NCBI GenBank assembly: GCA_964016885.1
Contig: OZ024740.1
Span: 434,806,001-434,870,000, forward strand
Direction: 5' to 3'
DNA from: Eledone cirrhosa
Taxonomy: Eukaryota
Length of the DNA: 64,000 bases
Below the pieces are notes generated by a model. The model was not told where the DNA came from and did not search any database. It saw only the letters and a list, made by a program, of their open reading frames with translations. Positions 13,141-41,743 of the stretch are shown in pieces (the first letter of the stretch is position 1; the number at the start of each line of letters is the position of its first letter). A program made the translations under genes and the position numbers.

Positions 13141-13214
13141 AAACAGGGAAACCTAAAATTTATGAAACACTTTTAGCTAATGAAGCAGAGAATTTTAAAC
13201 TTATTGCTAAAAAG
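13141..13214 (+). CDS. ASPM: ASPM exon (first visible in window; CH2 region) ..TGKPKIYETLLANEAENFKLIAKK
   Basis: Polypyrimidine-CAG acceptor and GTAAGT donor; peptide resembles vertebrate ASPM YKELLENEKKNF; phase fits the next exon. Confidence 0.85.
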
Positions 13215-14614: not shown

Positions 14615-14648
14615 TTAAATAAATATCTGAAGTATTTGTATGTTTCAG

Positions 14649-14849
14649 GTGAATGCCATTGGTGGTGTACCAGCTATGTTACGTCACACAGACATGTCTA
14701 ATACTATACCTGATGAGAAAGTGGTGATCACCTATGTTACGTACCTTGCCATACGTTTATTAGAAATAAGGCATGAATCAAGAGCAGCTATTGTTATCCA
14801 AATGGCCTGGCGTAAATATTTATGGCGCAAGAAACAAAGACTGCAAAAG
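14649..14849 (+). CDS. ASPM: ASPM exon: end of second calponin-homology domain and first IQ motif
   Basis: [34 protein letters not shown]...[11 protein letters not shown] contains the diagnostic ASPM/Asp motif [13 protein letters not shown]; AG/GT boundaries, phase 0-0. Confidence 0.97.
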
Positions 14850-15049: not shown

Positions 15050-18000
15050 TTGAAGAGTAAATCTGCCGTAGTGACCCAGTGGCAGTGTGGTGCCAATACA
15101 ATGGATAAAATACAAATTCTTTCTCCTCTGAATAGTTCAGCAGAAAAGACTAGAAGTTCATTGGTAAAATATACAGATAATGAAGATATGGCCCTTTCAC
15201 CAGCACAGTGTGACCAGAAACTGGACAATCATGAACGGAATTTCTTGCCAAAGTGTAATTTGGACACAATAGCAGAGGTTTCATGTTTAGAGACATTCTA
15301 TGAGAAGAGTTGTCCAAGAGATTATGGAAGCTGCAATGAGTCACCACTCAACTTGGTCATTCATAGTCTAAAGGATTCCAATAATCTTGGTCAAGAGAAA
15401 TTGGACAATCTGAATGCTAGGGAGGAATACAACAGGGATAAAATCTCAGCAAAATTGAACCAAACAGTTGAATTTGAGCGTGAGGATTCCAGTAATCTCC
15501 TTAATGGCACATTTGATGTCAAATACAACACGAAAGCACACCTTACCCATTACTTAAATCGAACTATTGATATCGGGAATGGTGTTGAATGTAATGTTTG
15601 CAACGAGAAACTTGAAGAAGAGTTAGTGGCAGAAGACACTGGAATAGAACATTCTTGTAATAAATATTCAGGGAATAATGAAAACCTTACAGATGACATA
15701 ACTGATAAAGATGTAGCCTTTCATGAACGAGGTGTGGGCCTTGAGAGAGGTGCGGCCCTTAAAGGGGGAGGCATGAACCTTAATGAGGGAGGTGCAGACT
15801 TTAATGAATGTGAAGCCAGCAGCCAAACTGGGTTGAATAAATTACCTCTTGGTTCTCTGGATGATTCTGTTGGTCACTTGAAGAAAGACACCACAACTCA
15901 GGACTCTGATCTACCAGATGTCACCACTGATGGTCAGTGTGGTCTACCAGATGGCTATACCACTGATGGTCACTCTGATCTACAAGATGTCTATACTACT
16001 GATGGTCAGTGTGGTCTACAAGATGTCTATACCACTGATGGTCACTCTGATCTACAAGATGTCTCTACTGATGGTCACTCTGATATACCAGATGTCTCTA
16101 CTGATGGTCACTCTGATATACCAGATGTCTCTACTGATGGTCACTCTGATATACCAGATGTCTCTACTGATGGTCAGTGTGGTCTACAAGATGGCTATAC
16201 TGATGGTCACTCTGATATACCAGATGGCTATACCACTGATGGTCACTCTGATCTACCAGATGTCTCTACTGATGGTCACTCTGATATACCAGATGTCTCT
16301 ACTGATGGTCAGTGTGGTCTACAAGATGGCTATACTGATGGTCACTCTGATCTACCAGATGTCTATACCACTGATGGTCACTCTGATCTACAAGATGGCT
16401 ATACCACTGATGGTCACTCTGATCTACCAGATGTCTATACCACTGATGGTCACTCTGATCTACCAGATGGCTATACCACTGGTCACTCTGATCTACCAGA
16501 TGTCTATACCACTGATGGTCACTCTGATCTACCAGATGTCTATACCACTGATGGTCACTCTGATCTACCAGATGGCTATACCACTGATGGTCACTCTGAT
16601 CTACCAGATGGCTATACCACTGATGGTCACTCTGATCTACAAGATGGCTATACCACTGATGGTCACTCTGATCTACCAGATGTCTATACCACTGATGGTC
16701 ACTCTGATCTACAAGATGGCTATACCACTGATGGTCACTCTGATCTACCAGATGTCTCTACCACTGATGGTCACTCTGATCTACCAGATGTCTCTACCAC
16801 TGATGGTCACTCTGATCTACCAGATGTCTCTACCACTGATGGTCACTCTGATCTACCAGATGTCTCTACCACTGATGGTCACTCTGATCTACCAGATGTC
16901 TCTACCACTGATGGTCACTCTGATCTACCAGATGTCTCTACCACTGATGGTCACTCTGATCTACCAGATGTCTCTACCACTGATGGTCACTCTGATCTAC
17001 CAGATGTCTCTACCACTGATGGTCACTCTGATCTACCAGATGTCTCTACCACTGATGGTCACTCTGATCTACCAGATGTCTCTACCACTGATGGTCACTC
17101 TGATCTACCAGATGTCTCTACCACTGATGGTCACTCTGATCTACCAGATGTCTCTACCACTGATGGTCACTCTGATCTACCAGATGTCTCTACCACTGAT
17201 GGTCACTCTGATCTACCGGATGTCTCTACCACTGATGGTCACTCTGATCTACCAGATGGCTATACCACTGATGGTCAGAGTGGTCTACCATATGTCCGTG
17301 ATAGTCTGGAAAGTGACTCTGTTGTCTGCAGTATTGAATCCTTCACTTGTTCTGCTGACTTAACTACCAAAATAACCATGAACGTCAATAATTCCAGTTT
17401 AGTTGCTTATGAAGAGCTGTCTTCTAATTGTGATGGAGAATACCTGGCCCCGGTTGAACGAGGACAGTGTGACACCCCTGATGGTATTCAGGGAGAATAC
17501 CTGGCCCCGGTTGAACGAGGACAGTGTGACACCCCTGATGGTATTCAGGGAGAATACCTGGCCCCGGTTGAACGAGGACAGTGTGACACCCCTGATGGTA
17601 TTCAGGGAGAATACCTGGCCCCGGTTGAACGAGGACAGTGTGACACCCCTGATGGTATTCAGGGAGAATACCTGGCCCCGGTTGAACGAGGACAGTGTGA
17701 CACCCCTGATGATATTCAGGGAAAATACCTGGCCCCGGTTGAACGAGGACAGTGTGACAGCTCTGATGATATTCAGGGAAAATACCTGGCTCCGGTTGAA
17801 CGAGGACAGTGTGACACCCCTGATGGTATTCAGGGAGAATACCTGGCCCCGGTTGAACGAGGACAGTGTGACAGCTCTGATGGTATTCAGGGAAAATACC
17901 TGGCTCCGGTTGAACGAGGACAGTGTGACAGCTCTGATGATATTCAGGGAAAATACCTGGCCCCGGTTGAACGAGGACAGTGTGACACCCCTGATGGTAT

Positions 18001-18148
18001 TCAGGGAGAATACCTGGCCCCGGTTGAACGAGGACAGTGTGACAGCTCTGATGATATTCAGTTCCTGAATGTTAATGAAACCAATCCAGGTGCCGACATG
18101 GATTCTGAAATTGTCGTTGAAGAAAAAAGTCTGAAACTTCAGAATCGG
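15050..18148 (+). CDS. ASPM: Probable ASPM giant exon (3099 bp, 1033 aa): acidic low-complexity insert with two coding tandem arrays
   Basis: The open frame starts exactly at a strong acceptor (T-run TTTAG) and ends at GTAAGT; phase 0-0 matches both neighbours; no similarity to canonical ASPM that I can recognise. Confidence 0.78.
15905..17291 (+). repeat. Coding minisatellite, 36/33-bp units (TTDGHSDLPDVS-type), about 39 copies
   Basis: ACCACTGATGGTCACTCTGATCTACCAGATGTCTCT repeats; length variants are multiples of 3. Confidence 0.97.
17435..18061 (+). repeat. Coding minisatellite, 57-bp unit x11 (GEYLAPVERGQCDTPDGIQ)
   Basis: Counted in the translation; 11 x 57 = 627 bp. Confidence 0.97.
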
Positions 18149-24321: not shown

Positions 24322-24403
24322 ACAACTGAAAGAAATAAAAGCCAGGCGCCATGTTGCTGCAACCATTATTCAGAGGTGGTTTAAGAGAACTGTTGCTGAA
24401 AAA
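24322..24403 (+). CDS. ASPM: ASPM exon (IQ motif AATIIQRWFK)
   Basis: TTTTAG/GTAAGA; phase 2-0 fits neighbours. Confidence 0.9.
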
Positions 24404-24834
24404 GTAAGAATTTATTTAATCTTGTTTTAAAAATATCAATTTCTTTAATATAAAGAATAGTGTACTCCTGTATGGAGATACTCTAGAATAGTGTGAAGAC
24501 CATTAAAAGATGGAAAAATAAGTTGCCATTGGCTGATATGAGGAATTGACCCCATATCTCCTTTATTTCTGAGTTACTGAAGGGGTTTGTGCATCTAGAT
24601 TCTGAAACTAATCAATTCAATTCTCAATAGGTTTTGTATTTTTCTGTTAAAGTTACCTGCTACTGTAATGCCTGATGTTTCACCCTCGAGGACTTGCCCC
24701 AGTATACAAAACTTGAAAAAAAAAAAATAAACATAAAAATAAATCTTGTCACTCATATCTGCTGTTAAACCTTTTTAACATAGTTTTACTTCTTTTGTCA
24801 GTTAATGTTCCCTTAAAACCGGGTTGTTGGAAAA

Positions 24835-25413
24835 GAGTGAAAATAGCAATATTGATACACAATATATAAGTATATCATTAGACAGTGGCCTCGTCTACCA
24901 GACTGCCCATACTGGAGTGAAAATAGCAATATTGATACACAATATATAAGTATATCATTAGACAGTGGCCTCGTCTACCAGACTCTGCCCATACTGGAGT
25001 GAAAATAGCAATATTGATACACAATATATAAGTATATCATTAGACAGTGGCCTCGTCTACCAGACTCTGCCCATACTGGAGTGAAAATAGCAATATTGAT
25101 ACACAATATATAAGTATATCATTAGACAGTGGCCTCGTCTACCAGACTCTGCCCATACTGGAGTGAAAATAGCAATATTGATACACAATATATAAGTATA
25201 TCATTAGACAGTGGCCTCGTCTACCAGACTCTGCCCATACTGGAGTGAAAATAGCAATATTGATACACAATATATAAGTATATCATTAGACAGTGGCCTC
25301 GTCTACCAGACTCTGCCCATACTGGAGTGAAAATAGCAATATTGATACACAATATATAAGTATATCATTAGACAGTGGCCTCGGCTACCAGACTCTGCCC
25401 ATACTGGAGTGAA
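24835..25413. repeat. 82-bp tandem repeat x7
   Basis: Units start at 24835, 24915, 24997, 25079, 25161, 25243, 25325; nearly identical. Confidence 0.97.
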
Positions 25414-25428
25414 GTTTTCTGATTGTGT

Positions 25429-25765
25429 CATCATCATTTCATTTTACGTCCGCTTTTCCCCTGCTTGCAAGGGTGGGACGGGAACTGATTCTGGCTTGAT
25501 TTCTACAGCTGGATGCCCTTCCTAACACCAACCTCATTTACAGTGAGTGCTGGGTGCTTTTTTGCCGTGGCAACTCCACGACCACTTTGCAGTGGGATGA
25601 TATGGACCCCAGTCCCTATCATCTCATTTCTACAGCTGAGTAAACTGGAGCAATGTGAAATAAAGTGTCTTGCTCAAGGAAACAACACATCACCCAGTCT
25701 GAGAATTGAACTCACAACCTTTCGATTGCAAGGCCAATGCTCTAACCACTAAGCCATGTGCCTCC
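25429..25765 (-). mobile_element. Full-length tRNA/CORE SINE with RTE-A-type 3' tail
   Basis: Head GGAGGCACATGGCTTAGTGG..GTTCAATTC, CORE-like CCTTGAGCAAGACACTT, RTE-UTR-like middle, tail nearly identical to the RTE-A 3' end. Confidence 0.85.
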
Positions 25766-26630
25766 ATGTGTATATATTAAAAAAAATTGTTTTTATGATA
25801 ATTAAGTTTAATTTATACATTTCATTGGGAGGTGATATAGAGGAGCTCAGATTACTGTCTAGCAGAGATAATGGTCCTCTGGAGTTAGGATATGTCTGAG
25901 AAACACAACCTTTCGTCTCCAAGAAGCATTGTAGATTTTTGAGACTTATTTTAGGGAAAAAAATAGCATCTTTGATACCAGGAAATATGGTATGTAGGTT
26001 AGTATCTTGGCCAATGTAGAAATATATTCCATCCAGTGGAACTCGATTGTCATGGCAATAAATAATTTATAAACATAACTTTAGCTTATTTCACCAGGTT
26101 TGTACATGTCAAATTACTGTTTATACTCAAATATCCCTCCCCCTCCACTTTATGCCTGAGAAATAGGCAAAACCCAAACCCTGTGTAAACCAAGACAACA
26201 CATTGTTTAGATGTCACAATTTTTTAATTTTCATGAGTAGAGAATATATTTTTTTTTATTTTTTTTTTAGTTTGTCTCACAACTATGTAATAGTTTTTAC
26301 CAATTTCTGACCATTTTGATGGTTATATTCATTCAAAATCTATCAATTACAATAGAAAATACAAATTTCATGTTGAAAGTGAAACTATTTTAGCATCTTG
26401 TTTATTTGAAGGTGATGAAGATCAACAAAATATTGACCTCGAATATAAGTTGACCTCAGTTTACATCGATTTTATTGTCATATTTCTTGGCTGTATATAC
26501 AAGAGTATATACAGTAATCTCTATGTAATAAGCTGGCTTTACTTGTATTGTCTGAATCGAGTTGTATTTTGGTTCTTACATAATCACCTTTGTCAGTGTT
26601 TTAATAGTTTCACAAATTTCTCTTTTACAG

Positions 26631-26696
26631 AAAGCCAGAAATGTTTACAGAATAACTTGTGACTGCTGTACTGTTGCTTCTTTACTGGTCGTCAAG
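26631..26696 (+). CDS. ASPM: Probable small ASPM exon KARNVYRITCDCCTVASLLVVK
   Basis: TCTTTTACAG acceptor, AAG/GTATGA donor, open, phase 0-0; no strong motif support. Confidence 0.65.
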
Positions 26697-26889
26697 GTAT
26701 GACTATTAAAACTTTTATATTTTATGTTGAAATAAGTGATTTGAAATTTGACTATTTCTAGCAGCTTGTGTGACCATATAAGTAGAGGCTCCCTTGTTTT
26801 CAATAAAATTCTTCAAGTAGATCTCACTCAGAATTAAATGTGTTATAGAAAAGTTAGTGCAGGGATTTCAGGTAAATAGATTTGGGTAT

Positions 26890-27277
26890 TTTGATACCAA
26901 ACTGCTCCTGGGTCTATGATATAAACACTTTAAAAACAAATAGGTTTGTATTTATATAAAAGCCTCCCATTATAATTTTATGTAAGAACCTTTGTTAAAT
27001 TATGTTACAAACACCAACCTAAGAAATTGAAAGTCATTTATTTTACTAAACCCCTCCAAATTTTGATTATTTTCAAAATTATTTTAAAATAATAGGCAAT
27101 ATCTTTCATTAGAGATATGGTAATGAAAGGGTTTAATAATATAAAGTGTCTTTCATTAGAAATATGGTAATGAAAGGGTTAATGACATAGACAGTGTCTT
27201 TCAGTAGAAATATGGTAATGAAAGGGTTAATTACATAGACAGTGTCTTCATTAGAAATATGGTAATGAAAGAGTTAA
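26890..27277 (-). mobile_element. Decayed piggyBac-type MITE with 4 tandem copies of its terminus
   Basis: Repeated AGAAATATGGTAATGAAAGGGTTAA; body distantly similar to P1. Confidence 0.55.
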
Positions 27278-27847
27278 AAATGTAAATGTGGTATGAAAAC
27301 TAAGATTGCATTTGATGGAAATATAGCTGAAAAAATATTTTTTAGGAACAAAAAGAAAAACATTTGTGTATTGTGGTGAGAAAAGATTAAATTAAAAGTT
27401 TTATCTGCATTTGTGGTGTTTGGGTCGATAAGTCTGTCTGGTTTCAAATACCTTTCCATGGTGAGTCCTTGATAGTGTCTTTGATATAAATGACCAGCTA
27501 GTTATCTGGTTGCAGTAGGTTTACTTGGTTTTTATTGCTGATTTCAGACTTAGATTAAGATTGGCAAATAGTTTCTTTGAGCTTGGTAACTAGCTGGCCA
27601 TTCACATCAGTTGGGTGTCATTTGAGGGAGATTGGGCTATTTCTATTAGATTAGTTCACCATATGAGGTTCCCTTGTTAGGTGTATGATAGGTATAGCTT
27701 GGAAGATTTGGGATGAAGTGATTTAATAGGAGCTTATAAGAAATAATGTATGGAAATATATATTCTTTAAATCAGTTTAATCTCGGCTAGGATGTAACAT
27801 AACTTAAGACACTGAAATAATTTTTTTTATTTTTTTTTTTTTTTCAG

Positions 27848-28036
27848 GCTTCAGCTGGATATTGGTTACTTAAAACACGGACAAGGAAATTAATTGCAGT
27901 TTGTACCATCCAGAAATATTGTCGTCATTGGTTACAACATAGACATGAAGCAGCTACAGTGATACAGGCTTTTACTCGTGGTTGGCTGCTTAGAAGAAAT
28001 CTGATGAAACAAACGGCTGCGGCTACTTTGATACAA
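27848..28036 (+). CDS. ASPM: ASPM exon (IQ motifs AVCTIQKYCR, AATVIQAFTRG, AATLIQ)
   Basis: T-run CAG acceptor, GTAAGC donor, 63 codons. Confidence 0.93.
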
Positions 28037-28229
28037 GTAAGCCATCTTTATATCATCTTCCAAATGTTATATTCTAGATTAGCAACACGTCATTATTGTT
28101 GAGCCTTAGATCACCTTGGACTTATTAGGATGAAAGGTCTTTCAGTTATGACCATCCTGTCAGCTAATGATGGACATCTGAAGCTTGGTTATTGTTACTT
28201 GAAAACTATTCCCAATAGGATCACATGAT

Positions 28230-28620
28230 CCAATATCATTTTACATCAATTGTTCCACGGGTTAGACGGGTCCTTCTCACTATAGCATCTTTCCACTTGT
28301 CGCATTCCTTTCTCACCTCTGTGAGCTTTAGCTATTTTAGATCAGCCCTCACCACTTCTATCCAGGTCTTCCTTGGTCTTCCTCTACTGCAGCCTCCCTC
28401 CACAGGGATTACTTAGCATTTTTTTCACCCAGCGATCATCATTCATGCACATCACATGTCCGTACCCTCTCCTGCACATGTTTGATTCCTTTTAAACCCA
28501 GTTTCTCCCTCAGTTCATCCATGCTTGCCTCATTTCTCACACATTAACATTGTACATTAAATGAATCACAGTTGCTTCATTTCTCTCCAGCCACCACATG
28601 TCCTCTGCAGTCACTGCCCA
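28230..28620 (-). pseudogene. Decayed RTE 3' end
   Basis: Reverse complement of RLERNE..YGHVM..GRPRKTW coding sequence with frameshifts. Confidence 0.8.
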
Positions 28621-29035
28621 TGTAGCACCACGTGTCCTCTGCAGTCACAGCCCATGCCTCACTACCATGTAGCACCACATGTCGTCTGCAATCACTGTCC
28701 ATGTCTCACTACCATGTAGCACCACATGTCCTCTGTAGTCGCAGCCCATGTCTCACTACCATGTAGCACCACATGTCCTCTGTAGTCGCAGCCCATGTCT
28801 CACTACCATGTAGCACCACATGTCCTCTGTAGTCGCAGCCCATGTCTCACTACCATGTAGCACCACATGTCCTCTAGTCGCAGCCCATGTCTTACTACCA
28901 TGTAGCACCACATGTCCTCTGCAATCACTTCCCATGTAGCACCACATGTCCTCTGCAGTCACAGCCCATGCCTCACTACCATGTAGCACCACATGTCCTG
29001 TGCAGTCACTGCCCATGTCTCACTACCATGCAACA
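28590..29035. repeat. About 47-bp minisatellite derived from RTE ORF sequence
   Basis: CATGTCTCACTACCATGTAGCACCACATGTCCTCTGTAGTCGCAGCC is antisense to [14 protein letters not shown] coding sequence. Confidence 0.9.
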
Positions 29036-29327
29036 TGGCAAATTATTTGAGGGAAATTTGGTTGCTATTTCTAATATGAAGGCATGAAGTCACGCACGCA
29101 CAAAGGGCTTCCACACAGTTCCCATCTACCAAATTCACTCAACTTAAGACAGATATTTACCCTATGGGGTTCAACCTAAGAGAGATGTACAGTGGAACTG
29201 ACACCCAGAATATCCTGTCACATTCTCTCACCAGTTCCTACTTACAATTTCTCAACTCCCTCTCTCTACAATTGTTCACCACACTGCTCACTTTTTAATG
29301 TCTTCTGGCTTTCTTTTGCTGTTTCAG

Positions 29328-29519
29328 AAAAATATTCGGTCTTTCTATGCAAGAAAACTTTTTGAAAAGAAGAAAAATGCCATCTTAACAATTGAGTTGT
29401 ATTTGAAAACATATCTCCAGCGCCGCAGTGACTCTGTTGAACTGATTCAGAGAGTTGCGAGAGGCTGGATTGTGAGGAAACGTATGAAGTATCTCCACCA
29501 CAACGCTACTCTTATCCAA
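29328..29519 (+). CDS. ASPM: ASPM exon (IQ motifs)
   Basis: TTTCAG/GTAAAT; KNIRSFYARK...ELIQRVARGWIVR...ATLIQ; 64 codons. Confidence 0.93.
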
Positions 29520-29551
29520 GTAAATTAATGTTTTTATTATCTGTTCTTTTG

Positions 29552-29750
29552 TTTAATAATTGTTTCTACTTTTGGCACAAGGCCAGCAATTATCCCCGGT
29601 ACATTACTGGTACTTTATTTTATTGGCCCTGTAAGGATGAAGGGTAAAGTTAACCTCGGCAGGATTTGAACCAAGAACGTAAAGGTTCATAAATCTATGC
29701 GTCAAAGCATGGTGTCCGACACTCTACCGGTACTACCAATTCACTGCCCC
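29552..29750 (-). mobile_element. tRNA-derived SINE, second family (Nin-like central domain)
   Basis: Minus strand shows tRNA-like head, CTTCATCCTTAC..ATAAAATAAAGTACCAG and TGGCCTTGTGCCAAAA tail; copies at 48703-48815, 49470-49660, 50908-51130. Confidence 0.75.
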
Positions 29751-30009
29751 TGGTCTGCTGTTTTAATAGACTTGGATATAAGCCAAGGAATATATGACCC
29801 CAAAATATCAATAGTAGAAGGGATAATAATGAAATTGTGTACAGTGCTCAGGGGCACTACAACTCATCAAAGGTGCATGTATAGTACATATGTAGTATTG
29901 GATTGTGGTCATGCTGGATCATTGCTTATTAGTGATATAACTACAGTGTTTAGTCCAGTACCCTATTCTGGCTTCCATTCACCAAGATGTAGATATACAC
30001 CCATGTATA

Positions 30010-30185
30010 CAAGTGTCGGCTGAATAGTTCATAGGCTGACCAAGATACTCTCATGGAATGACCAAATGAGGTTTATTTTTCAACATAGTCCATAGAAAGA
30101 AACAATGTAGTTAAGAAAAGTTGAAATTATTGCATGCAAGACTTCACAGCTCTAGCATCACTCTTTCATAGTCAGCCAACCCTCG
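30010..30185. mobile_element. Mariner/Tc1-type MITE
   Basis: TA-CAAGTGTCGGCTGA ... TCAGCCAACCCTCG-TA imperfect TIRs with TA flanks; partial second copy near 32168-32230. Confidence 0.65.
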
Positions 30186-30294
30186 TATCCCTCTACCAAA
30201 TATAATTTCCAAGTCTTAGGTCAACCTCATTCTATGGTAGACACTGGCCCTTGGTATTGTAAAGGGAGATTGAATCTGGAACACTGACTGGGAA

Positions 30295-30378
30295 CCACCC
30301 CACCACCACCATCACCACCACCACTACCATCACCACCACCACTACCATCATCACCACTGCCACTACCATCACCAACAC
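30295..30378. repeat. (CCA)n/(CAT)n trinucleotide tract
   Basis: Directly visible. Confidence 0.9.
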
Positions 30379-30511
30379 TTATATAAATTTGTCTCTTATA
30401 ATACCAGAATCAGTTCCCGTCCCACCCTTGCAAGCGTATCCTTTTCTTTCTCTTTTTAAACGTATTTAAATGTATGAGAATGAAATGTTTGTAATTCCTT
30501 TCTGTTGCCAG

Positions 30512-30701
30512 AGTTACTGGAGAGGCTACAAGATCCGATGTCAAAGCAAACAAACTGTGACTAGGTTGAGACAGCGTTTGTCAGCTGTAACAAAGGAAGC
30601 AACTGAAGATAAGAAAATAATTAGTCGATTTGCTGAAGGTTTTGATCAACTAATGAAGACCAAACAACTTTCTGATGTTTTGTTTGCCCTCGTAAATCTT
30701 G
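30512..30701 (+). CDS. ASPM: ASPM exon: last IQ (SYWRGYKIR) and start of C-terminal domain
   Basis: GCCAG/GTTAGT; phase 0-1. Confidence 0.93.
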
Positions 30702-31391
30702 GTTAGTCACAATTTTCTTTCCTTTCTTTGCGTTTATCTTATTCAAATTTCCAGAAAGTTTTCTGGAAATGTTAAACATTTGGAGCAGTTAATTTAACAA
30801 CTATTACCTTTTCTTGTTAACTATTCATGTAAAAAGCTAAAGAGGACCTTGTAATTTCACTGGCAAACTTAGATATATGAGGTAGAGCTGCTACATCTCT
30901 GAATTGAGAGATCACAGCTTCGATACTATGGGTATGTGGTTAGAATGTCTCGGGAAAGAATCGCTGGACAGATTTTATGGGCAAAACCAACTGGCAGGAA
31001 ACCCAGGGGTAGATCCTGATTAAGATGGTTGGATAACATCTATGAGATTGACTGGTCTCATTTGGAGATCCAGTTGGATAATTTGGAGATGGTTTCTTCT
31101 GACAGGACCCGCTGGAAGGAGTACTTGAGGACTCTTCCCCCCTTGACCCTTCCAAGTATAGTGGGGGAGGAGGAAGAAGGTATGTGTACACATGTAAGCA
31201 GCAGCACAAAAAATATTTTCTGGTACTTAAGTTCTAGCTATATCCCTTGCCTTTCAGCCTATATATCATCAATAAAATGCTTATTCTACTAATCTTAGAT
31301 ATAACCAACTAAGTTACTAACAATTCAGATATTTTTGTTTATCTTTGAATAAACCCCCCCCCCCCCCCCATTTTTTGTGTTTATTCTACAG

Positions 31392-31546
31392 AAGCTGCTT
31401 CTCGCCTTTCCCCTGTATGTTGTCTTCACCTGGCTAATGGTAACGCTGTTCCAGTCATACACAACATAATTAAAGGTTGTAATCGCAGTATACCTCACAT
31501 GGAACTCATTAAGTACAGTATACAAATATTTCTCAACTTAGCAAAG
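31392..31546 (+). CDS. ASPM: ASPM exon: ARM/HEAT-like region
   Basis: EAASRLSPVCC...IIKGCNRSIPHMELIKYSIQIFLNLAK matches conserved RLSPxCC and CNRSIP of ASPM; phase 1-0. Confidence 0.97.
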
Positions 31547-31810
31547 GTTTGTATAATTTATCTCGGTTTATTAAGGGTCCACGTGCCTTAGAGTTTAGGG
31601 CAAGTGTTTTCTTTTCTTATTTTTTGTTTGAAACATATTTAACAGTATAAAGGAGACCCCCAACATATAAACCCACCATTTCAGCAGAGCATATTAAGAA
31701 AAAATTTCCCCCAAAGCAAGCATTGTTCTACCAGCTACCCTGACTTATAAGACCTGGGTGATATTGTTAAGATATCAAATATCGACTTATTTACCACTGT
31801 TGCTATGGTT

Positions 31811-31960
31811 ACCATCCATATTATATTGTTAGTGTTGACTAACAATATAATATAGATGGTAGTTAACTACCATCTATATTATGTTGTTAGTCAACACTAC
31901 CATTTATATTGTGTTGTTAGTCAACACTACCATTTATATTGTGTTGTTAGTCAACACTAG
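31811..31960. repeat. Nested inverted plus tandem repeats of an about 31-bp unit
   Basis: ACCATC.ATATTATATTGTTAGT occurs forward, inverted, then forward three times. Confidence 0.85.
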
Positions 31961-32399
31961 TTAAATATGTCTGATTTCTTTAATCATTGAAACTATCGTG
32001 GGTGTGGCGCTAAACTATGGTCAGGCTCCAGTTTGAGGGTTGTGAGGTATATGGTGTTAGTGGGGTGACTATAATGTTGCTGGTGACTAACATTATAGAC
32101 GTCTGTGTGTCCTAATCAGTAGATAACTATTCCTATTAATCTACAAAAGAATATTGAGACACTCTATATGGAGGTCAGCTGAAAAGTTCATAGGCTGACC
32201 AAGATACTCTCATGGAATAATCAAATGGGGTTATTAATAAAAGTTGAAATTTTTACATCAAAGTGTCTCCATAACCGCTGACTCAACCTTCGTCGGAGGC
32301 ATGGGGGAGTTAGCAAGGCTGGGCTGGGATGTGGTTGCTGGATGTTACATGTCATTAGACACAAGGTCCTAGTAGATAGCCTGCCTTCTTACTAAGATT

Positions 32400-32705
32400 A
32401 TTTAAACAGTTTCTCTCTCAACTCATCTATGGGTTGAGGGATGAGTTGTAGTGTGAGGGAGAGAAGACTGCGATGGTATGGACATGTGATGCGCATGGAG
32501 GATGACTGCTGGGTAAAGAAGTGCCAAGAAATGCTGGTGGAAGGAAGACCACGAAAAATATGGGTGGAAGTGGTGAGAACAGACCTCAGATTGCTGAAGC
32601 TCACCGAGATGACGACAAAGGACTATGACAAGTGGAGAGATGCTGTGCTGAATAGGACCCATCCCACCCTTGCAAGCAGGGAAAAGCAGACATAAAATGA
32701 TAATG
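32400..32705 (+). pseudogene. 5'-truncated RTE-A 3' end
   Basis: ORF 32441-32695 closely matches the RTE-A C-terminus ([16 protein letters not shown]...PTLASREK). Confidence 0.92.
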
Positions 32706-32794
32706 GGACAGTTAAAATATGAAACCTTTGTAGTAGATTTTGCTAAGCCAGCAGAATTTAGATACTCTGTTGACCAAGACAATAGATTTTAAAG

Positions 32795-34316
32795 TACTAT
32801 CGATGCCCTCCGATGGCGGCGCTGGACGGAGGGCCCGGTGAAGTTGCTCGGGGTCTGGTTCGGACCAGACCTCCAGGTGGAGAAGAACTGGGGTGAGGTA
32901 ACGAACAGGGTGTTTGCACTGACCCAGAAGTGGGCCGAGTGCAAACTGTCCCTGAAATGTCGGGCGGAGGTGGCGAACACTTATATAGCGTCCGTCATCT
33001 ACTACCGCCTGACCGTTGTGCCTTGCCCAAGGGAAACGCTCGCCAAAATGGAGCGCGCACTCTTCCAATTCTTTTGGAAGAAGCGGGCTCCTTTGGTGAG
33101 GAGATCCATCTGCTGTCAACACCCTTCGAAAGGAGGGCTGGGGATGCCGTGGCTAATGATGCGTAAACACGCATTAAGGCTACGGCACCTCTACGTATTC
33201 CTCACCGGACAATCGGTGTGGGCCTCGTTTGTGAGGCGAGCCTTTACCAGACTCGTCTCACTCACCGAGCTGCAATCCTGGGTCAAGCAAAGACCGAGAA
33301 AACTGGGCGCCTGGCACACTGAGTGTGCCCAGGTGCTCACGGCTCTCTGGCAGGCGGACCCGGCTGTCAGTGGAGAATCCACCTCGTCATTCTATAGAGG
33401 GCTGGTGGTTAGCAGGTGCGACGACGCCCTCGGAGAAGCCCTAGGCATGGAGGAAGACGAACTGGCCAACCTGTTCGGTAGGACATTCAGCCCGGGACCC
33501 ATGGATAACTTCCAGAGGTCCCTGGCCTGGCAGTGCTACCGAGGGGCTCTGCCCGTTCGAGAAAGGCTCTACAGACACGGGCGCCCGGGTAGGGACCCCT
33601 CGAAAAAGATCTGTCCCAGATGCGTGTGCGACGAGGAAACCGTTGCACACGCATTGGTACACTGCTCGGGCATTGCCGATCTGTGGGGCTATGTCGAACA
33701 ACTGCTGCCAAGGGTGGGTCCGATCCGGTTGACCACCGAGTCTATTGTAACGATCAAGCCGCCTCCCCTCTTCAAAAACGAAGGAGAGGCGGTGTTTCTG
33801 TGCGTAATGGCCATGGCGAAAGAGGTTGTATGGTGGACGCGTCTGAAAGGACTGAGGTCGGGCACCTTTCTCTCTGGCCAACAACTGGTCCGTTTCTTCT
33901 GATATCATTTCGGAAGAAGGATCAGGATGGAGAGAGAGGTGCTGCACCCCAGCCGTTTCTATGAAAGATGGGTGAAAGTGGCGAGAATGGCCCGTGTGAA
34001 TGGGCCTTCACTCTACATCAGACTATAGGTGAGGAAGATGAAAGACCAAGGGAGCACCCCCTCTCTGTGCTCCCGAGGAAAAGGGTTGCACACTTTTTTT
34101 CGGGGGGGTGCGCGACCTCCCCTCCCCCCCCCCCCCCCCCCCCCCCCCAAGGCGCCTCCTCTCTAATGAGGACTTTGTTATAAATTTTATTTTTTGTTAT
34201 ATTTTATTTTATTTTTATATATTATTGCCTCCTCCTTATTGAGGAAGCCTTGTTTTGTAAACTCCCCCCATTGTACTTGTCCCACTTTTGATGCCCTGGT
34301 GGCAAATAAAAGAAAC
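32795..34316 (+). mobile_element. 5'-truncated L1/Tx1-clade LINE (end of RT, zf-RVT, 3' UTR with AATAAA)
   Basis: KLLGVWF, LSLKCRAEVAN, KGGLGMP, GALPVRERL, CPRC..EETVAHALVHC; the frame continues past TGA 33900-33902 to TAG at 34028. Confidence 0.9.
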
Positions 34317-34336
34317 ATATATTAAGAAGTCTTTAA

Positions 34337-34554
34337 GCCTTTGATGACTGCATTGCTAATGAAGTACTGTTTCAATTAATTAATGAAGAATTTTGTGGGA
34401 TTTACTGAAATTATTTCATTACTTAGATAGTAATCTAATGTAAGGTTCTTATATAAAATTATGTTGGAAAATTTCAATTTAAATAAGAACCCTTTAAAAT
34501 GGGTTTTGTTTCATAGAACTAGAGCGAGTTTTGGCCGGGTTGGTAATTAAACGA
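34337..34554 (+). mobile_element. piggyBac-type MITE P1
   Basis: Flanked by TTAA (34333-36 and 34555-58); body matches 14160-14365. Confidence 0.75.
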
Positions 34555-34576
34555 TTAAATCAATTTATCTTTTCAG

Positions 34577-34726
34577 TACGCTCCAACCATTGAGTCTGTT
34601 TACTATTCCCACCCAGATGCTATAGATATTATTCTCAAAGTTATGACAGTATTTCGAGAAAAGGGTGTTGTTTTCTCCAAATCCTGTATATTGTTGGGGA
34701 CTATAGCTCTTGATCTAAAAGAGAAG
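34577..34726 (+). CDS. ASPM: ASPM exon YAPTIESVY...VFREKGVVFSKSCILLG..
   Basis: TTTTCAG/GTAAGA; resembles ASPM YREK..IFTKTCCLL; phase 0-0. Confidence 0.93.
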
Positions 34727-34788
34727 GTAAGATATGTTTCTCATTTTTGTAGTAAAATATGTTGGCATAAGCTGGTTGTGTTGGCATG

Positions 34789-37700
34789 TAAACACGTTCT
34801 TATACACCGTCTTGTATCTAAACACGTTCTTATACACCGTCTTGTATCTAAACACGTTCTTATACACCCAGTCTTGTATCTAAACACGTTCTTATACACC
34901 CAGTCTTGTATCTAAACACGTTCTTATACACCCAGTCTTGTATCTAAACACGTTCTTGTACACCCAGTTTTGTATCTAAACACGTTCTTATACACATACA
35001 CCCAGTCTTGTATCTAAACACGTTCTTGTACACCCAGTTTTGTATCTAAACACGTTCTTATACACATACACCCAGTCTTGTATCTAAACACGTTCTTATA
35101 CACATACACCCAGTCTTGTATCTAAACACGTTCTTATACACCCAGTCTTGTATCTAAACAGGTTCTTATACACCCAGTCTTGTATCTAAACACGTTCTTA
35201 TACACCCAGTCTTGTATCTAAACACGTTCTTATACACCCAGTCCTGTATCTAAACGCGTTCTTATACACCCAGTCCTGTATCTAAACGCATTCTTATACA
35301 CCCAGCCTTGTATCTAAACACGTTCTTATACACCCAGTCTTGTATCTAAACACGTTCTTATACACCCAGTCTTGTATCTAAACACGTTCTTATACACCCA
35401 GTCTTGTATCTAAACACGTTCTTATACACCCAGTCTTGTATCTAAACACGTTCTTATACACCCAGTCTTGTATCTAAACACGTTCTTATACACCCAGTCT
35501 TGTATCTAAACACGTTCTTATACACCCAGTCTTGTATCTAAACACGTTCTTATACACCCAGTCTTGTATCTAAACACGTTCTTATACACCCAGTCTTGTA
35601 TCTAAACACGTTCTTATACACCCAGTCTTGTATCTAAACACGTTCTTATACACCCAGTCTTGTATCTAAACACTTTCTTATACACCCAGTCTTGTATCTA
35701 AACACGTTCTTATACACCCAGTCTTGTATCTAAACACATTCTTATACACCCAGTCCTGTATCTAAACACTTTCTTATTCACCCAGTCCTGTATCTAAACA
35801 TGTTCTTATACACCCAGTCTTGTATCTAAACATGTTCTTATACACCCAGTCTTGTATCTAAACACATTCTTATACACCCAGTCCTGTATCTAAACACATT
35901 CTTATACACCCAATCCTGTATCTAAACACATTCTTATACACCCAGTCCTGTATCTAAACACGTTCTTATACACCCAGTCTTGTATCTAAACACATTCTTA
36001 TACACCCAGTCCTGTATCTAAACACATTCTTATACACCCAGTCTTGTATCTAAACACGTTCTTATACACCCAGTCTTGTATCTAAACACGTTCTTATACA
36101 CCCAGTCTTGTATCTAAACACATTCTTATACACCCAGTCCTGTATCTAAACACGTTCTTATACACCCAGTCTTGTATCTAAACACGTTCTTATACACCCA
36201 GTCTTGTATCTAAACACGTTCTTATACACCCAGTCTTGTATCTAAACACGTTCTTATACACCCAGTCCTGTATCTAAACACATTCTTATACACCCAGTCT
36301 TGTATCTAAACACGTTCTTATACACCCAGTCCTGTATCTAAACACGTTCTTATACACCCAGCCCTGTATCTAAACACATTCTTATACACCCAGTCTTGTA
36401 TCTAAACACGTTCTTATACACCCAGTCCTGTATCTAAACACATTCTTATACACCCAGTCCTGTATCTAAACACATTCTTATACACCCAGTCCTGTATCTA
36501 AACACGTTCTTATACACCCAGTCTTGTATCTAAACACGTTCTTATACACCCAGTCTTGTATCTAAACACATTCTTATACACCCAGTCCTGTATCTAAACA
36601 CGTTCTTATACACCCAGTCTTGTATCTAAACACGTTCTTATACACCCAGTCTTGTATCTAAACACGTTCTTATACACCCAGTCTTGTATCTAAACACGTT
36701 CTTATACACCCAGTCCTGTATCTAAACACATTCTTATACACCCAGTCTTGTATCTAAACACGTTCTTATACACCCAGTCCTGTATCTAAACACGTTCTTA
36801 TACACCCAGTCCTGTATCTAAACACATTCTTATACACCCAGTCTTGTATCTAAACACGTTCTTATACACCCAGTCCTGTATCTAAACACATTCTTATACA
36901 CCCAGTCCTGTATCTAAACACATTCTTATACACCCAGTCCTGTATCTAAACACATTCTTATACACCCAGTCCTGTATCTAAACATGTTCTTATACACCCA
37001 GTCCTGTATCTAAACACATTCTTATACACCCAATCCTGTATCTAAACACATTCTTATACACCCAGTCCTGTATCTAAACACGTTCTTATACACTCAGTCT
37101 TGTATCTAAACACGTTCTTGTACACCCAGTTTTGTATCTAAACACGTTCTTATACACATACACCCAGTCTTGTATCTAAACACGTTCTTGTACACCCAGT
37201 TTTGTATCTAAACACGTTCTTATACACATACACCCAGTCTTGTATCTAAACACGTTCTTATACACATACACCCAGTCTTGTATCTAAACACGTTCTTATA
37301 CACCCAGTCTTGTATCTAAACACGTTCTTATACACCCAGTCTTGTATCTAAACACGTTCTTATACACCCAGTCTTGTATCTAAACACGTTCTTATACACC
37401 CAGTCTTGTATCTAAACACGTTCTTATACACCCAGTCTTGTATCTAAACACGTTCTTATACACCCAGTCTTGTATCTAAACACGTTCTTATACACCCAGT
37501 CTTGTATCTAAACACGTTCTTATACACCCAGTCCTGTATCTAAACGCGTTCTTATACACCCAGTCCTGTATCTAAACGCGTTCTTATACACCCAGCCTTG
37601 TATCTAAACACGTTCTTATACACCCAGTCTTGTATCTAAACACGTTCTTATACACCCAGTCTTGTATCTAAACACGTTCTTATACACCCAGTCTTGTATC

Positions 37701-40700
37701 TAAACACGTTCTTATACACCCAGTCTTGTATCTAAACACGTTCTTATACACCCAGTCTTGTATCTAAACACGTTCTTATACACCCAGTCTTGTATCTAAA
37801 CACGTTCTTATACACCCAGTCTTGTATCTAAACACGTTCTTATACACCCAGTCTTGTATCTAAACACGTTCTTATACACCCAGTCTTGTATCTAAACACG
37901 TTCTTATACACCCAGTCTTGTATCTAAACACGTTCTTATACACCCAGTCTTGTACCTAAACACGTTCTTATACACCCAGTCTTGTACCTAAACACGTTCT
38001 TATACACCCAGTCTTGTACCTAAACACGTTCTTATACACCCAGTCTTGTATCTAAACACGTTCTTATACACCCAGTCTTGTATCTAAACACGTTCTTATA
38101 CACCCAGTCTTGTATCTAAACAGGTTCTTATACACCCAGTCTTGTATCTAAACACTTTCTTATACACCCAGTCTTGTATCTAAACACGTTCTTATACACC
38201 CAGTCTTGTATCTAAACACATTCTTATACACCCAGTCCTGTATCTAAACACTTTCTTATACACCCAGTCCTGTATCTAAACATGTTCTTATACACCCAGT
38301 CTTGTATCTAAACATGTTCTTATACACCCAGTCCTGTATCTAAACACATTCTTATACACCCAGTCCTGTATCTGAACACATTCTTATACACCCAGTCCTG
38401 TATCTAAACATGTTCTTATACACCCAGTCCTGTATCTAAACACATTCTTATACACCCAGTCCTGTATCTAAACACGTTCTTATACACTCAGTCTTGTATC
38501 TAAACACGTTCTTGTACACCCAGTTTTGTATCTAAACACGTTCTTATACACATACACCCAGTCTTGTATCTAAACACGTTCTTGTACACCCAGTTTTGTA
38601 TCTAAACACGTTCTTATACACATACACCCAGTCTTGTATCTAAACACGTTCTTATACACATACACCCAGTCTTGTATCTAAACACGTTCTTATACACCCA
38701 GTCTTGTATCTAAACACGTTCTTATACACCCAGTCTTGTATCTAAACACGTTCTTATACACCCAGTCTTGTATCTAAACACGTTCTTATACACCCAGTCT
38801 TGTATCTAAACACGTTCTTATACACCCAGTCTTGTATCTAAACACGTTCTTATACACCCAGTCTTGTATCTAAACACGTTCTTATACACCCAGTCTTGTA
38901 TCTAAACACGTTCTTATACACCCAGTCTTGTATCTAAACACGTTCTTATACACCCAGTCTTGTATCTAAACACGTTCTTATACACCCAGTCTTGTATCTA
39001 AACACGTTCTTATACACCCAGTCTTGTATCTAAACACGTTCTTATACACCCAGTCTTGTATCTAAACACGTTCTTATACACCCAGTCTTGTATCTAAACA
39101 CGTTCTTATACACCCAGTCTTGTACCTAAACACGTTCTTATACACCCAGTCTTGTACCTAAACACGTTCTTATACACCCAGTCTTGTACCTAAACACGTT
39201 CTTATACACCCAGTCTTGTATCTAAACAGGTTCTTATACACCCAGTCTTGTATCTAAACACTTTCTTATACACCCAGTCTTGTATCTAAACACGTTCTTA
39301 TACACCCAGTCTTGTATCTAAACACATTCTTATACACCCAGTCCTGTATCTAAACACTTTCTTATACACCCAGTCCTGTATCTAAACATGTTCTTATACA
39401 CCCAGTCTTGTATCTAAACATGTTCTTATACACCCAGTCCTGTATCTAAACACATTCTTATACACCCAGTCCTGTATCTGAACACATTCTTATACACCCA
39501 ATCCTGTATCTAAACACATTCTTATACACCCAGTCCTGTATCTAAACACGTTCTTATACACCCAGTCTTGTATCTAAACACATTCTTATACACCCAGTCC
39601 TGTATCTAAACACATTCTTATACACCCAGTCTTGTATCTAAACACGTTCTTATACACCCAGTCTTGTATCTAAACACGTTCTTATACACCCAGTCTTGTA
39701 TCTAAACACATTCTTATACACCCAGTCCTGTATCTAAACACGTTCTTATACACCCAGTCTTGTATCTAAACACGTTCTTATACACCCAGTCTTGTATCTA
39801 AACACGTTCTTATACACCCAGTCCTGTATCTAAACACATTCTTATACACCCAGTCTTGTATCTAAACACGTTCTTATATACCCAGTCCTGTATCTAAACA
39901 CGTTCTTATACACCCAGCCCTGTATCTAAACACATTCTTATACACCCAGTCTTGTATCTAAACACGTTCTTATACACCCAGTCCTGTATCTAAACACATT
40001 CTTATACACCCAGTCTTGTATCTAAACACGTTCTTATACACCCAGTCTTGTATCTAAACACATTCTTATACACCCAGTCCTGTATCTAAACACGTTCTTA
40101 TACACCCAGTCTTGAAGCTAAACACGTTCTTATACACCCAGTCTTGTATCTAAACACGTTCTTATACACCCAGTCCTGTATCTAAACACATTCTTATACA
40201 CCCAGTCCTGTATCTAAACACATTCTTATACACCCAGTCCTGTATCTAAACACATTCTTATACACCCAGTCCTGTATCTAAACACGTTCTTATACACCCA
40301 GTCTTGTATCTAAACACGTTTTTATACACCCAGTCTTGTATCTAAACACGTTCTTATACACCCAGTCCTGTATCTAAACACATTCTTATACACCCAGTCC
40401 TGTATCTAAACACATTCTTATACACCCAGTCCTGTATCTAAACACATTCTTATACACCCAGTCCTGTATCTAAACACGTTCTTATACACCCAGTCTTGTA
40501 TCTAAACGCGTTCTTATACACCCAGTCTTGTATCTAAACGCGTTCTTATACACCCAGTCTTGTATCTAAACGCGTTCTTATACACCCAGTCTTGTATCTA
40601 AACACATTCTTATACACCCAGTCTTGTATCTAAACACATTCTTATACACCCAGTCCTGTATCTAAACACATTCTTATACACCCAGTCTTGTATCTAAACA

Positions 40701-41389
40701 CGTTCTTATACACCCAGTCTTGTATCTAAACACGTTCTTATACACCCAGTCTTGTATCTAAACACATTCTTATACACCCAGTCCTGTATCTAAACACGTT
40801 CTTATACACCCAGTCTTGTATCTAAACACGTTCTTATACACCCAGTCTTGTATCTAAACACGTTCTTATACACCCAGTCCTGTATCTAAACACATTCTTA
40901 TACACCCAGTCTTGTATCTAAACACGTTCTTATACACCCAGTCCTGTATCTAAACACGTTCTTATACACCCAGTCCTGTATCTAAACACATTCTTATACA
41001 CCCAGTCTTGTATCTAAACACGTTCTTATACACCCAGTCCTGTATCTAAACACATTCTTATACACCCAGTCCTGTATCTAAACCTGTTCTTATACACCCA
41101 GTCCTGTATCTAAACACATTCTTATACACCCAGTCTTGTATCTAAACACGTTCTTATACACCCAGTCTTGTATCTAAACACGTTCTTATACACCCAGTCT
41201 TGTATCTAAACGCGTTCTTATACACCCAGTCTTGTATCTAAACACATTCTTATACACCCAGTCCTGTATCTAAACACTTTCTTATACACCCAGTCCTGTA
41301 TCTAAACATGTTCTTATACACCCAGTCTTGTATCTAAACACATTCTTATACACCCAGTCCTGTATCTAAACATGTTCTTATACACCCAA
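34789..41389. repeat. 6.6-kb satellite, 32-bp unit, about 205 copies, in the last ASPM intron
   Basis: CCCAGTCTTGTATCTAAACACGTTCTTATACA with point variants and a few 38-bp units. Confidence 0.99.
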
Positions 41390-41677
41390 TTCTCTTCCTT
41401 TTCTCACTTTCTATTTCATCTCGTATTTCTCATTCTATCTCTTGATGAAGGACTAGTGTCTGAAACGTTAAGACTCTTCCTGCTATGTCAAGTGTTAAAC
41501 TAATATATTTCTTTATTGTACTGAGTTGTTTGCTGTGTTGTTTCTGTTTATTTTTTTGCATATGTACATATACATACGTACATATGTATATATATATATA
41601 TATATGTACGTATGTGCATGTGTAGGCTGACATTCACGTGTAGACCATGCACACACGTTTTCATAAGTCACATTTTC

Positions 41678-41743
41678 CACAACAGGACAACTCGTCTAGC
41701 CCATGCTAGCGTCAAAGAATGGACGTAAAACGATGATGATGAT
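41678..41743 (+). mobile_element. SINE/RTE 3' tail fragment
   Basis: CACAACAGGACAACTCGTCTAGCCCATGCTAGCG...GGACGTAAAAC(GAT)n. Confidence 0.75.

What the first reader, a model, noticed from the sequence alone, without database searches (positions are those of the whole stretch)
15050..18148. 1033-aa acidic, repeat-expanded cassette exon inserted in ASPM between CH2/first IQ and the IQ array
Seen: a 3099-bp open frame bounded precisely by a strong acceptor and GTAAGT, phase 0-0, so it can be skipped in frame. It begins with a decayed IQ-like motif (KSAVVTQWQ) and is strongly D/E-rich, next to a very K/R-rich IQ exon. Established: ASPM/Asp is a spindle-pole microtubule minus-end protein controlling neural progenitor division (MCPH5), and in vertebrates and flies CH2 runs directly into calmodulin-binding IQ repeats. 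Inference: a lineage-specific disordered spacer in a brain-size gene of a probably large-brained mollusc. It could change spindle-pole reach, mask the basic IQ array electrostatically, or be alternatively spliced.
Basis: partly seen in the sequence, partly recalled or inferred. Interest (0 to 1): 0.8.

Follow-up and report, generated by a model that had tools for sequence, protein, structure and literature searches.

The report
Octopod ASPM's giant acidic spacer exon
In this octopus-group animal and three relatives, a short ancestral exon of the cell-division and brain-size gene ASPM has grown into a 500-1000-residue acidic spacer that is spliced into RNA here, and its conserved front end likely recruits a mitotic phosphatase while its fast-changing repeats probably act only as filler.

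Summary
The exon is real: 3099 nt, 1033 open codons, phase 0-0, 21% D+E. One apparently RNA-derived run splices it in at the 5' junction (shown) and the 3' junction (inferred); no skip form was seen. It is not private to this genome. ASPM models of Octopus vulgaris, O. bimaculoides and Argonauta hians carry it (904, 500, 764 aa), while 223 of 223 non-octopod ASPM records lack it, including 24 gastropods and bivalves. No squid or nautilus ASPM was retrieved. It is not a new cassette: it sits in the slot of an ancestral 65-codon phase 0-0 exon (human exon 17 equivalent, IQ2-IQ4) and keeps IQ2's first ten codons. The first 200 residues are conserved, with an LxxIxE PP2A-B56-type motif in 4 of 4 species and two to three LNxT-hydrophobic motifs. 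The tandem repeats differ between species and show no amino-acid constraint within this genome. Best reading: a constitutive disordered tether with a phospho-regulatory docking patch. Binding is untested. A brain-size role is unsupported: a land snail evolved a similar acidic repeat insert elsewhere in ASPM.

The parts
13141..13214 (+). ASPM exon, late CH2 region
   Evidence: 87% to O. vulgaris ASPM 1114-1143; its 3' letters are the loose end of a spliced X4 contig at 14647
14649..14849 (+). ASPM exon: end of CH2 plus IQ1; its donor lies 13 residues after the IQ1 tryptophan (ancestral intron position)
   Evidence: 89-92% to three octopod ASPMs; same donor position in 5 genomic ORF fragments and 10 of 45 anchored animal contigs
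15050..18148 (+). The expanded exon, 1033 codons, phase 0-0, in the slot of the ancestral 65-codon IQ2-IQ4 exon
15050..15079 (+). Relic first half of IQ2 (Q at codon 10)
   Evidence: Q at +10 in 203 of 212 non-octopod ASPMs; rank 1 of 1024 ten-mers on the IQ2 profile
15080..15700 (+). Conserved low-structure block shared by octopods (57-60% to Octopus, 47% to Argonauta over residues 1-200)
   Evidence: single copy in the genome search
15245..15286 (+). Most conserved patch, holding the LxxIxE motif (15260-15277) with Ser at position 8; candidate PP2A-B56 docking site
   Evidence: 12 of 14 columns invariant, permutation p 0.0033; motif rules from PMC10970375
15452..15574 (+). Three L-N-x-T-hydrophobic-acidic motifs; candidate Polo/Plk1-type sites (kinase consensus recalled, not from a call)
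   Evidence: 3, 3, 3 and 2 copies in the four species against 4 in 102,609 residues of ASPM N-terminal disordered regions
15903..17296 (+). Repeat 1: 38 units of 11-12 residues (29 x 36 nt, 9 x 33 nt), no K or R, net -113
   Evidence: relatives have arrays with a similar STDG core but different units
17435..18061 (+). Repeat 2: 11 units of 19 residues (57 nt); the matching stretch is single-copy in the two Octopus species
   Evidence: found only at this locus in the genome search
18062..18148 (+). Unique 3' tail of the exon, weakly IQ-like end
   Evidence: rank 2 of 1024 on the IQ profile; 117 unique letters 18032-18148 equal the unplaced 5' length of X4 contig 25
21120..23116 (+). Large basic IQ-array exon (human exon 18 equivalent)
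   Evidence: Pfam IQ E 2.3e-39; 74% to Octopus ASPM; covered by one spliced X4 contig
24322..42101 (+). Remaining IQ and C-terminal exons of ASPM
   Evidence: seven tblastn segments at 61-88% to O. vulgaris ASPM 2780-3201

Best explanation
This is an exon of octopod ASPM, spliced into RNA here and likely constitutive, that replaced the ancestral 65-codon IQ2-IQ4 exon with a predicted-disordered acidic tether whose conserved front 200 residues likely dock the phosphatase PP2A-B56 and would be phosphorylated by mitotic kinases. Shown: open frame, 5' splice junction, presence in four octopod species, absence from 223 other ASPM records, ancestral slot and phase, conserved LxxIxE patch, species-specific repeats. 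Inferred: the 3' junction; that inclusion is the rule in all tissues; that B56 binds the motif; that Polo-type kinases hit the LNxT sites and Ser8 of the motif, so that PP2A recruitment beside the CH1-CH2-IQ1 head tunes microtubule minus-end binding; and that the repeats serve only as flexible acidic length between the head and the calmodulin-coated IQ rod.
For: Splicing: an X4 contig joins 14849>15050 at GT..AG and runs to 15435, a second covers 15445-15724; none of the 3 X4 records laid has a loose end behind 14849. X4 contig 25 reaches 21119 at its letter 117, and exactly 117 unique letters lie between the last repeated 31-mer and the exon end. Orthology: O. vulgaris 904 aa, O. bimaculoides 500 aa, Argonauta 764 aa inserts at the same place; 5 of 229 anchored proteins have more than 130 aa after IQ1 and all 5 are octopod. 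Ancestral slot: Q at +10 in 203 of 212; two animal contigs, L025 and L026, show a 65-codon phase 0-0 exon there; human exon 16 starts at c.3742 (PMC6074201) and exon 18 at aa 1356 (PMC10436222), leaving 108 codons = 43 + 65 in the macaque sequence. Motif: L, I and E kept in 4 of 4 species in the most conserved patch, p 0.0033; D at position 2 in 3 of 4, S at position 8 in 4 of 4, as in BubR1 where Plk1 phosphorylation at position 8 strengthens binding (PMC10970375). Precedent: fly Asp binds PP2A-B56 through an N-terminal LxxIxE that supports pole cohesion (PMC12701367), and Polo phosphorylates Asp (PMC10047693). The octopod N-terminal disordered region has no strict LxxIxE. AlphaFold2 gives pLDDT under 50 for 820 of 1033 residues. 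Repeats: 3 of 15 distinct codon variants are synonymous against 0.25 expected without selection.
Against: No binding or phosphorylation was tested. LxxIxE is short, and L..I.E strings also occur in folded CH and C-terminal parts of many ASPMs. The four species are only about three independent lineages and the 14-column window was chosen after looking. The conserved block is no more conserved than the N-terminal disordered region (O. vulgaris vs Argonauta 50% against 59%). No basic patch was checked for and positions 7 and 9 are not acidic. X4 is one sample of unknown tissue whose kind is not on record, from the same study as the three other runs; contigs drop rare forms. The 3' junction letters were not displayed. 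One older O. bimaculoides model (P0005) lacks the insert. The Plk1 consensus is recalled; searches for a source failed. A single-sequence AlphaFold2 run gives low confidence for folded proteins too.
Confidence: 0.55

Rival explanations
1. Tolerated expansion without a specific job: the exon grew by slippage at a permissive hinge and only the reading frame is kept; the front block is conserved merely as any coding disordered region is.
For: Length varies twofold (500-1033 aa) and units differ by species; repeat variants look neutral; the land snail Bradybaena has an independent acidic repeat insert of about 250 aa late in its IQ array; the genome is rich in minisatellites; fly Asp lacking five IQs still rescues brain size (PMC4674283).
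Against: Conservation is patchy, as expected of motifs: 12 of 14 invariant columns, and LNxT motifs occur 2-3 times per 200 aa against 0.008 expected.
Confidence: 0.25
2. Alternatively spliced cassette: some tissues skip the exon and make a compact CH2-IQ1-IQ-array protein.
For: Phase 0-0 allows it; human ASPM has an isoform without exon 18; model P0005 lacks the insert.
Against: The 0-0 phase is inherited from the ancestral exon; no skip contig in X4; all 3 full-length O. vulgaris isoforms include it; P0005 also lacks the first 21 residues of the next exon and several other stretches, as a homology-guided model would.
Confidence: 0.2
3. Electrostatic autoinhibitor: the acidic repeats fold back on the basic IQ array or CH head, like a tubulin-tail mimic, until calmodulin or phosphorylation frees them.
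For: Net -169 beside a +121 exon.
Against: Insert charge spans -46 to -169 while the IQ region is +149 to +158 in the three relatives, so it is not matched; IQ motifs are normally covered by acidic calmodulin (established).
Confidence: 0.13
4. Adaptation for large brains: the insert changed neural progenitor divisions in cephalopods.
For: Found only in octopods among 229 records; octopod ASPM is remodelled more widely, with an N-terminus of about 615 aa against 1022-1664 in 24 gastropods and bivalves and 33-37 IQ-like sites against 47-73 in 22 of 24.
Against: No squid, cuttlefish or nautilus sequence was found, so the link with brain size is untested; in flies the N-terminal fragment alone restores brain size; a snail has an analogous insert; ASPM also acts in germ line (octopus testis transcript, PMC6341066).
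Confidence: 0.07
5. The insert was captured from a transposon, another gene or ASPM's own N-terminal disordered region.
For: Octopods have a short N-terminal region; mobile elements sit in neighbouring introns.
Against: A profile of the conserved block finds no non-octopod match among 273 session proteins (best E 0.44); one genomic copy only; 1.84 billion representatives gave O. bimaculoides ASPM and one spurious bacterial repeat protein.
Confidence: 0.05

Closest known systems
ASPM/Asp (MCPH5), human exon 17 and its animal orthologues
   Same: Same gene, same intron 13 residues after the IQ1 tryptophan, same 0-0 phase, IQ2's first ten codons retained in register.
   Different: Ancestral exon is 65 codons of basic IQ2-IQ4; here it is 500-1033 codons, acidic, and those three IQs are lost or decayed.
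Octopus vulgaris CAI9716381.1, O. bimaculoides XP_052827235.1, Argonauta hians GAB1599350.1 ASPM models
   Same: Carry the same insert with the same conserved front block and an STDG-core repeat.
   Different: Shorter (904, 500, 764 aa), different repeat units, and no 19-residue second array; the insert carries no annotation in the hit tables.
Drosophila Asp LxxIxE / PP2A-B56 (Wdb, Wrd) site, PMC12701367
   Same: LxxIxE in an unstructured part of an Asp/ASPM protein.
   Different: Fly site is N-terminal (aa 350-356) with acidic positions 7-8 and is tested; the octopod site lies after IQ1, has Ser at 8, is not homologous by position and is untested.
BubR1 KARD motif (PMC10970375)
   Same: L1, I4, E6 with a serine at position 8.
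   Different: Unrelated protein; BubR1 has a Cdk1 serine at position 2 and Asp at 7.
Bradybaena similaris ASPM (P0135) acidic repeat insert
   Same: Acidic tandem repeat interrupting the IQ array.
   Different: About 250 aa, near the distal end, different sequence; independent origin.

Membership tests
ASPM/Asp | N-terminal ASH domain | tested here: met
   First exon 72 kb upstream is 84% identical to O. vulgaris ASPM 1-146, which holds Pfam ASH at 35-129
ASPM/Asp | Two calponin-homology domains | tested here: met
   13 upstream segments without stops cover O. vulgaris 1-1116, two more in the window; Pfam CH x2 in the orthologues
ASPM/Asp | IQ-repeat array | tested here: met
   PF00612 E 2.3e-39 on 21120-23117
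ASPM/Asp | Conserved C-terminal region | tested here: met
   76-88% segments to O. vulgaris 2934-3201
ASPM/Asp | Spindle-pole, minus-end localisation and calmodulin binding | not testable with these tools
   needs cells or purified protein
Alternatively spliced cassette exon | Frame-preserving exon with canonical sites | tested here: met
Alternatively spliced cassette exon | Both inclusion and skip transcripts exist | tested here: inconclusive
   Inclusion seen, skip not seen, in contigs of one sample
Newly inserted exon | No orthologous exon in outgroups | tested here: not met
   65-codon phase 0-0 exon at the same acceptor in L025 and L026; IQ2 relic in register
PP2A-B56 LxxIxE docking motif | [LMFI]xx[ILV]xE, best with L1 and I4 | tested here: met
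   4 of 4 species; rule from PMC10970375
PP2A-B56 LxxIxE docking motif | Acidic or phosphorylatable residues at 2, 7, 8, 9 | tested here: inconclusive
   D2 in 3 of 4, S8 in 4 of 4, positions 7 and 9 neither
PP2A-B56 LxxIxE docking motif | Lies in an accessible disordered region | tested here: inconclusive
   pLDDT about 30 there, but from a single-sequence model; no Pfam domain
PP2A-B56 LxxIxE docking motif | Binds B56 | not tested
Beta-solenoid repeat domain (repeat 2) | Credible fold with structural relatives | tested here: inconclusive
   pLDDT 56-80 over about 800-1000 but no PDB match at E <= 0.001; AlphaFold2 over-predicts solenoids on perfect repeats (PMC11795689 abstract)

The most novel reading that the evidence does not exclude
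Octopods rebuilt ASPM: they gave up three IQ motifs next to the microtubule-binding head, shortened the N-terminal region and the IQ rod, and grew in that hinge a new phospho-switch (PP2A-B56 dock plus Polo sites) on a tether of up to 1000 residues, giving a lineage-specific way to control spindle poles that contributed to their large-scale neurogenesis.
Probability: 0.12. Interest if true: 0.85.

Novelty: new variant of a known kind. Interest (0 to 1): 0.5.

Why it matters
ASPM's CH2-to-IQ junction is fixed in length across 223 animal records, so a natural 500-1000-residue break after IQ1 marks where the head and rod can be uncoupled and suggests IQ2-IQ4 are dispensable in this lineage. It offers a clear case of regulatory motifs arising inside an expanded exon, in the gene most often mutated in human primary microcephaly, in a lineage that evolved large brains independently. 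The tests are direct: junction counts, motif binding, and a fly or human-cell swap. It also corrects a trap: phase symmetry here is inherited and does not indicate a cassette.

Tried and rejected
No RNA holder was listed by the run search; the RNA nature of X4 is read from its spliced contigs. X4 has no cover at 15733-15900; contigs cannot show absence. No squid, cuttlefish or nautilus ASPM appeared or recognisably. The Atlas gave no usable hit. Pfam YLP on repeat 2 (E 5e-8, 0 stretches passing alone) and Apolipoprotein on Argonauta are repeat artefacts. P0274 is a Mycoplasma repeat protein, taken as spurious. Relocation of the N-terminal region: no profile match; a crustacean N-terminal LxxIxE stretch scored only E 2.5. 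In one search a strict anchor missed 110 proteins and was replaced by a profile anchor (229 of 233; the 4 missing are P0006, P0017, P0033, P0108). In one search, 11 of 56 loci had no anchor; of 45, the donor lay at W+13 in 10, W+8 to W+11 in 30, and was not found in 5; the next exon was resolved in only 2, and hits in the other loci were not trusted. No complex prediction was run. The ASPM-katanin paper (Jiang 2017) and two Plk1 motif papers were not held; and 85 found 0 papers. Earlier scan findings: none by sequence or full words; 7 by 'ASPM', none on this feature. No supplementary files were read.

Full report
Observation. The stretch 15050-18148 on the plus strand is an open frame of 1033 codons between a poly-T acceptor and a GTAAGT donor, phase 0 at both ends. 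It is 21% D+E with net charge -169; the next exon's frame is 23% K+R, net +121. The non-repeat first 284 codons have no stop while the other five frames have 9-42, and 0 of 20,000 shuffles stay open. Two arrays fill most of it: 38 units of 33 or 36 nt and 11 units of 57 nt.

Gene. The flanking exons are ASPM. The IQ exon is 74% identical to Octopus vulgaris and O. bimaculoides ASPM and 60% to Argonauta hians. Thirteen upstream segments without stops, starting 72 kb before the window, and ten in the window cover the O. vulgaris protein outside the insert. Searches of the 3.0-Gb genome returned one copy of the CH2 exon, the ASH exon and the insert's front.

Transcription. Four runs of one study hold the stretch; none is on record as RNA. 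X1-X3 cover introns. X4's contigs skip introns at GT..AG, so it behaves as RNA. One X4 contig joins 14849 to 15050 and continues to 15435; another covers 15445-15724; none of the 3 laid has a loose end behind 14849. A 3750-nt X4 contig covers the IQ exon from its letter 117 and splices on to 24322. The unique sequence between the last repeated 31-mer and the exon end is exactly 117 letters, and this contig was not among those laid on the upstream exon, so the 18148>21120 junction is inferred, though its letters were not shown. This is one sample of unknown tissue, and contigs drop rare forms.

Distribution. O. vulgaris (3 of 3 full-length isoforms), O. bimaculoides and Argonauta carry inserts of 904, 500 and 764 aa at the same place. 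Of 233 proteins of 1400 aa or more, 229 could be anchored at IQ1; 5 have over 130 aa before the next IQ and all are these octopod records. The other 224 are 223 non-octopod records, among them 24 named gastropods and bivalves and 5 other lophotrochozoans, and one older O. bimaculoides model (P0005) that also lacks other pieces. No squid, cuttlefish or nautilus ASPM was retrieved, so the age is bracketed only as octopod-wide or older within cephalopods.

Origin. The upstream donor lies 13 residues after the IQ1 tryptophan. Five genomic ORF fragments from unnamed animals turn into intron at that place, as do 10 of 45 anchored contigs; 30 have the donor 2-5 codons earlier and 5 showed none. After this boundary 203 of 212 non-octopod ASPMs have the IQ2 glutamine at +10, as do the octopods; the first ten-mer ranks first in three species and seventh of 755 in Argonauta. 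In the two contigs where the next exon could be resolved, L025 and L026, it is 65 codons, phase 0-0, ending on the IQ4 glutamine; residue 65 is Q in 22 of 28 proteins printed. Human exon 16 starts at c.3742 (PMC6074201, passages) and exon 18 at residue 1356 (PMC10436222, passages); the 108 codons between split as 43 + 65 at this boundary when counted on the macaque sequence, so the slot is that of human exon 17 (the split itself is inferred). The exon is therefore an expanded ancestral exon, with IQ2-IQ4 lost or decayed, and its phase symmetry is inherited.

Anatomy. Residues 1-200 are 57-60% identical to Octopus and 47% to Argonauta, less than the IQ exon (74-75%, 61%) and a little less than the N-terminal disordered region. 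Conservation is patchy. The densest patch has 12 of 14 invariant columns (permutation p 0.0033, window chosen after inspection) and contains LxxIxE in 4 of 4 species, with Asp at 2 in three and Ser at 8 in all. These fit the published B56 rules, and position 8 is a Plk1 site that strengthens binding in BubR1 (PMC10970375, passages). Two to three LNxT-hydrophobic-acidic motifs follow, against 4 in 102,609 residues of ASPM N-terminal regions; their match to the Plk1 consensus is recalled. Repeat 1 shares an STDG core with the relatives but units, counts and homogenised variants differ; repeat 2 is an 11-fold copy of a stretch that is single in Octopus. All length variants are whole codons, and 3 of 15 codon variants are synonymous against 0.25 expected, so residue identity looks unconstrained. 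AlphaFold2 on the single sequence gives pLDDT under 50 for 820 residues and a beta-rich model for repeat 2 only, with no PDB match; such solenoids are a known artefact (PMC11795689, abstract).

Mechanism. Most likely the exon is constitutive and forms a disordered acidic tether between the CH1-CH2-IQ1 head and the calmodulin-bound IQ rod, with a docking patch for PP2A-B56 and Polo-type sites next to the head. Fly Asp binds PP2A-B56 through an N-terminal LxxIxE that supports pole cohesion (PMC12701367, parts 1-2 of 6 and passages) and is phosphorylated by Polo (PMC10047693, passages). The octopod N-terminal disordered region lacks a strict LxxIxE. Binding, phosphorylation and any spindle effect are untested; confidence 0.55.

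Results against. Insert charge varies from -46 to -169 while the IQ region is +149 to +158 in the relatives, which argues against tuned masking. The snail Bradybaena has an independent acidic repeat insert of about 250 aa late in its IQ array, and some mammals have short acidic breaks, so the array tolerates such things. In flies the N-terminal fragment alone restores brain size (PMC4674283 and PMC12520113, passages), which weakens a brain-size reading of a change after IQ1. The Argonauta IQ2 relic scores poorly. L..I.E strings also occur by chance in folded parts of ASPM.

Novelty. The insert is present in public protein models. Open-access searches for ASPM with octopus (12 papers) and with cephalopod (17 papers) showed no title or abstract start on it (listings); I read one passage, a testis expression mention (PMC6341066). 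Searches added nothing on it. Subscription journals and supplements were not searched. I rate it a new variant of a known kind, interest 0.5.

Noticed in passing
window 26631-26696 (+): A 66-nt in-frame exon with a Cys cluster; present in the O. bimaculoides and Argonauta ASPM models, absent from all three O. vulgaris models. A better candidate for a true cassette exon, or an annotation miss.
   Followed up: partly
window 4912-7914 (+) and 8422-11544 (-): Two tail-to-tail non-LTR retroelement frames (endonuclease, reverse transcriptase, PHD finger; 1000 and 1040 aa open) inside one ASPM intron.
   Followed up: partly
window 32793-33902 (+): Fragment of another retroelement (zf-RVT) in a downstream intron.
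   Followed up: partly
window 34789-41388: 6.6-kb array of a 32-nt unit (205 copies, strong GC skew) in the last ASPM intron; many other minisatellites with periods 17-82 nt.
   Followed up: no
window 2320-2710: A long near-perfect inverted repeat (hairpin) between AT microsatellites, seen by eye.
   Followed up: no
window 19830-20460, 23180-23370, 23890-24080: A very high-copy short interspersed repeat with a 58-nt internal unit; summed contig depth in the hundreds of thousands in the DNA-like runs and about 100,000 in X4.
   Followed up: no
P0135 (Bradybaena similaris ASPM), about residues 3430-3650: Independent acidic tandem-repeat insert of about 250 aa in the distal IQ array.
   Followed up: partly
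P0002, P0003, P0004 against 24 gastropod and bivalve ASPMs: Octopod ASPM has a much shorter N-terminus (about 615 against 1022-1664 aa) and fewer IQ-like sites (33-37 against 47-73 in 22 of 24).
   Followed up: partly
P0084 (Macrobrachium ASPM) 66-130: N-terminal LxxIxE followed by LNKT motifs, a similar motif order to the octopod insert, but only E 2.5.
   Followed up: partly
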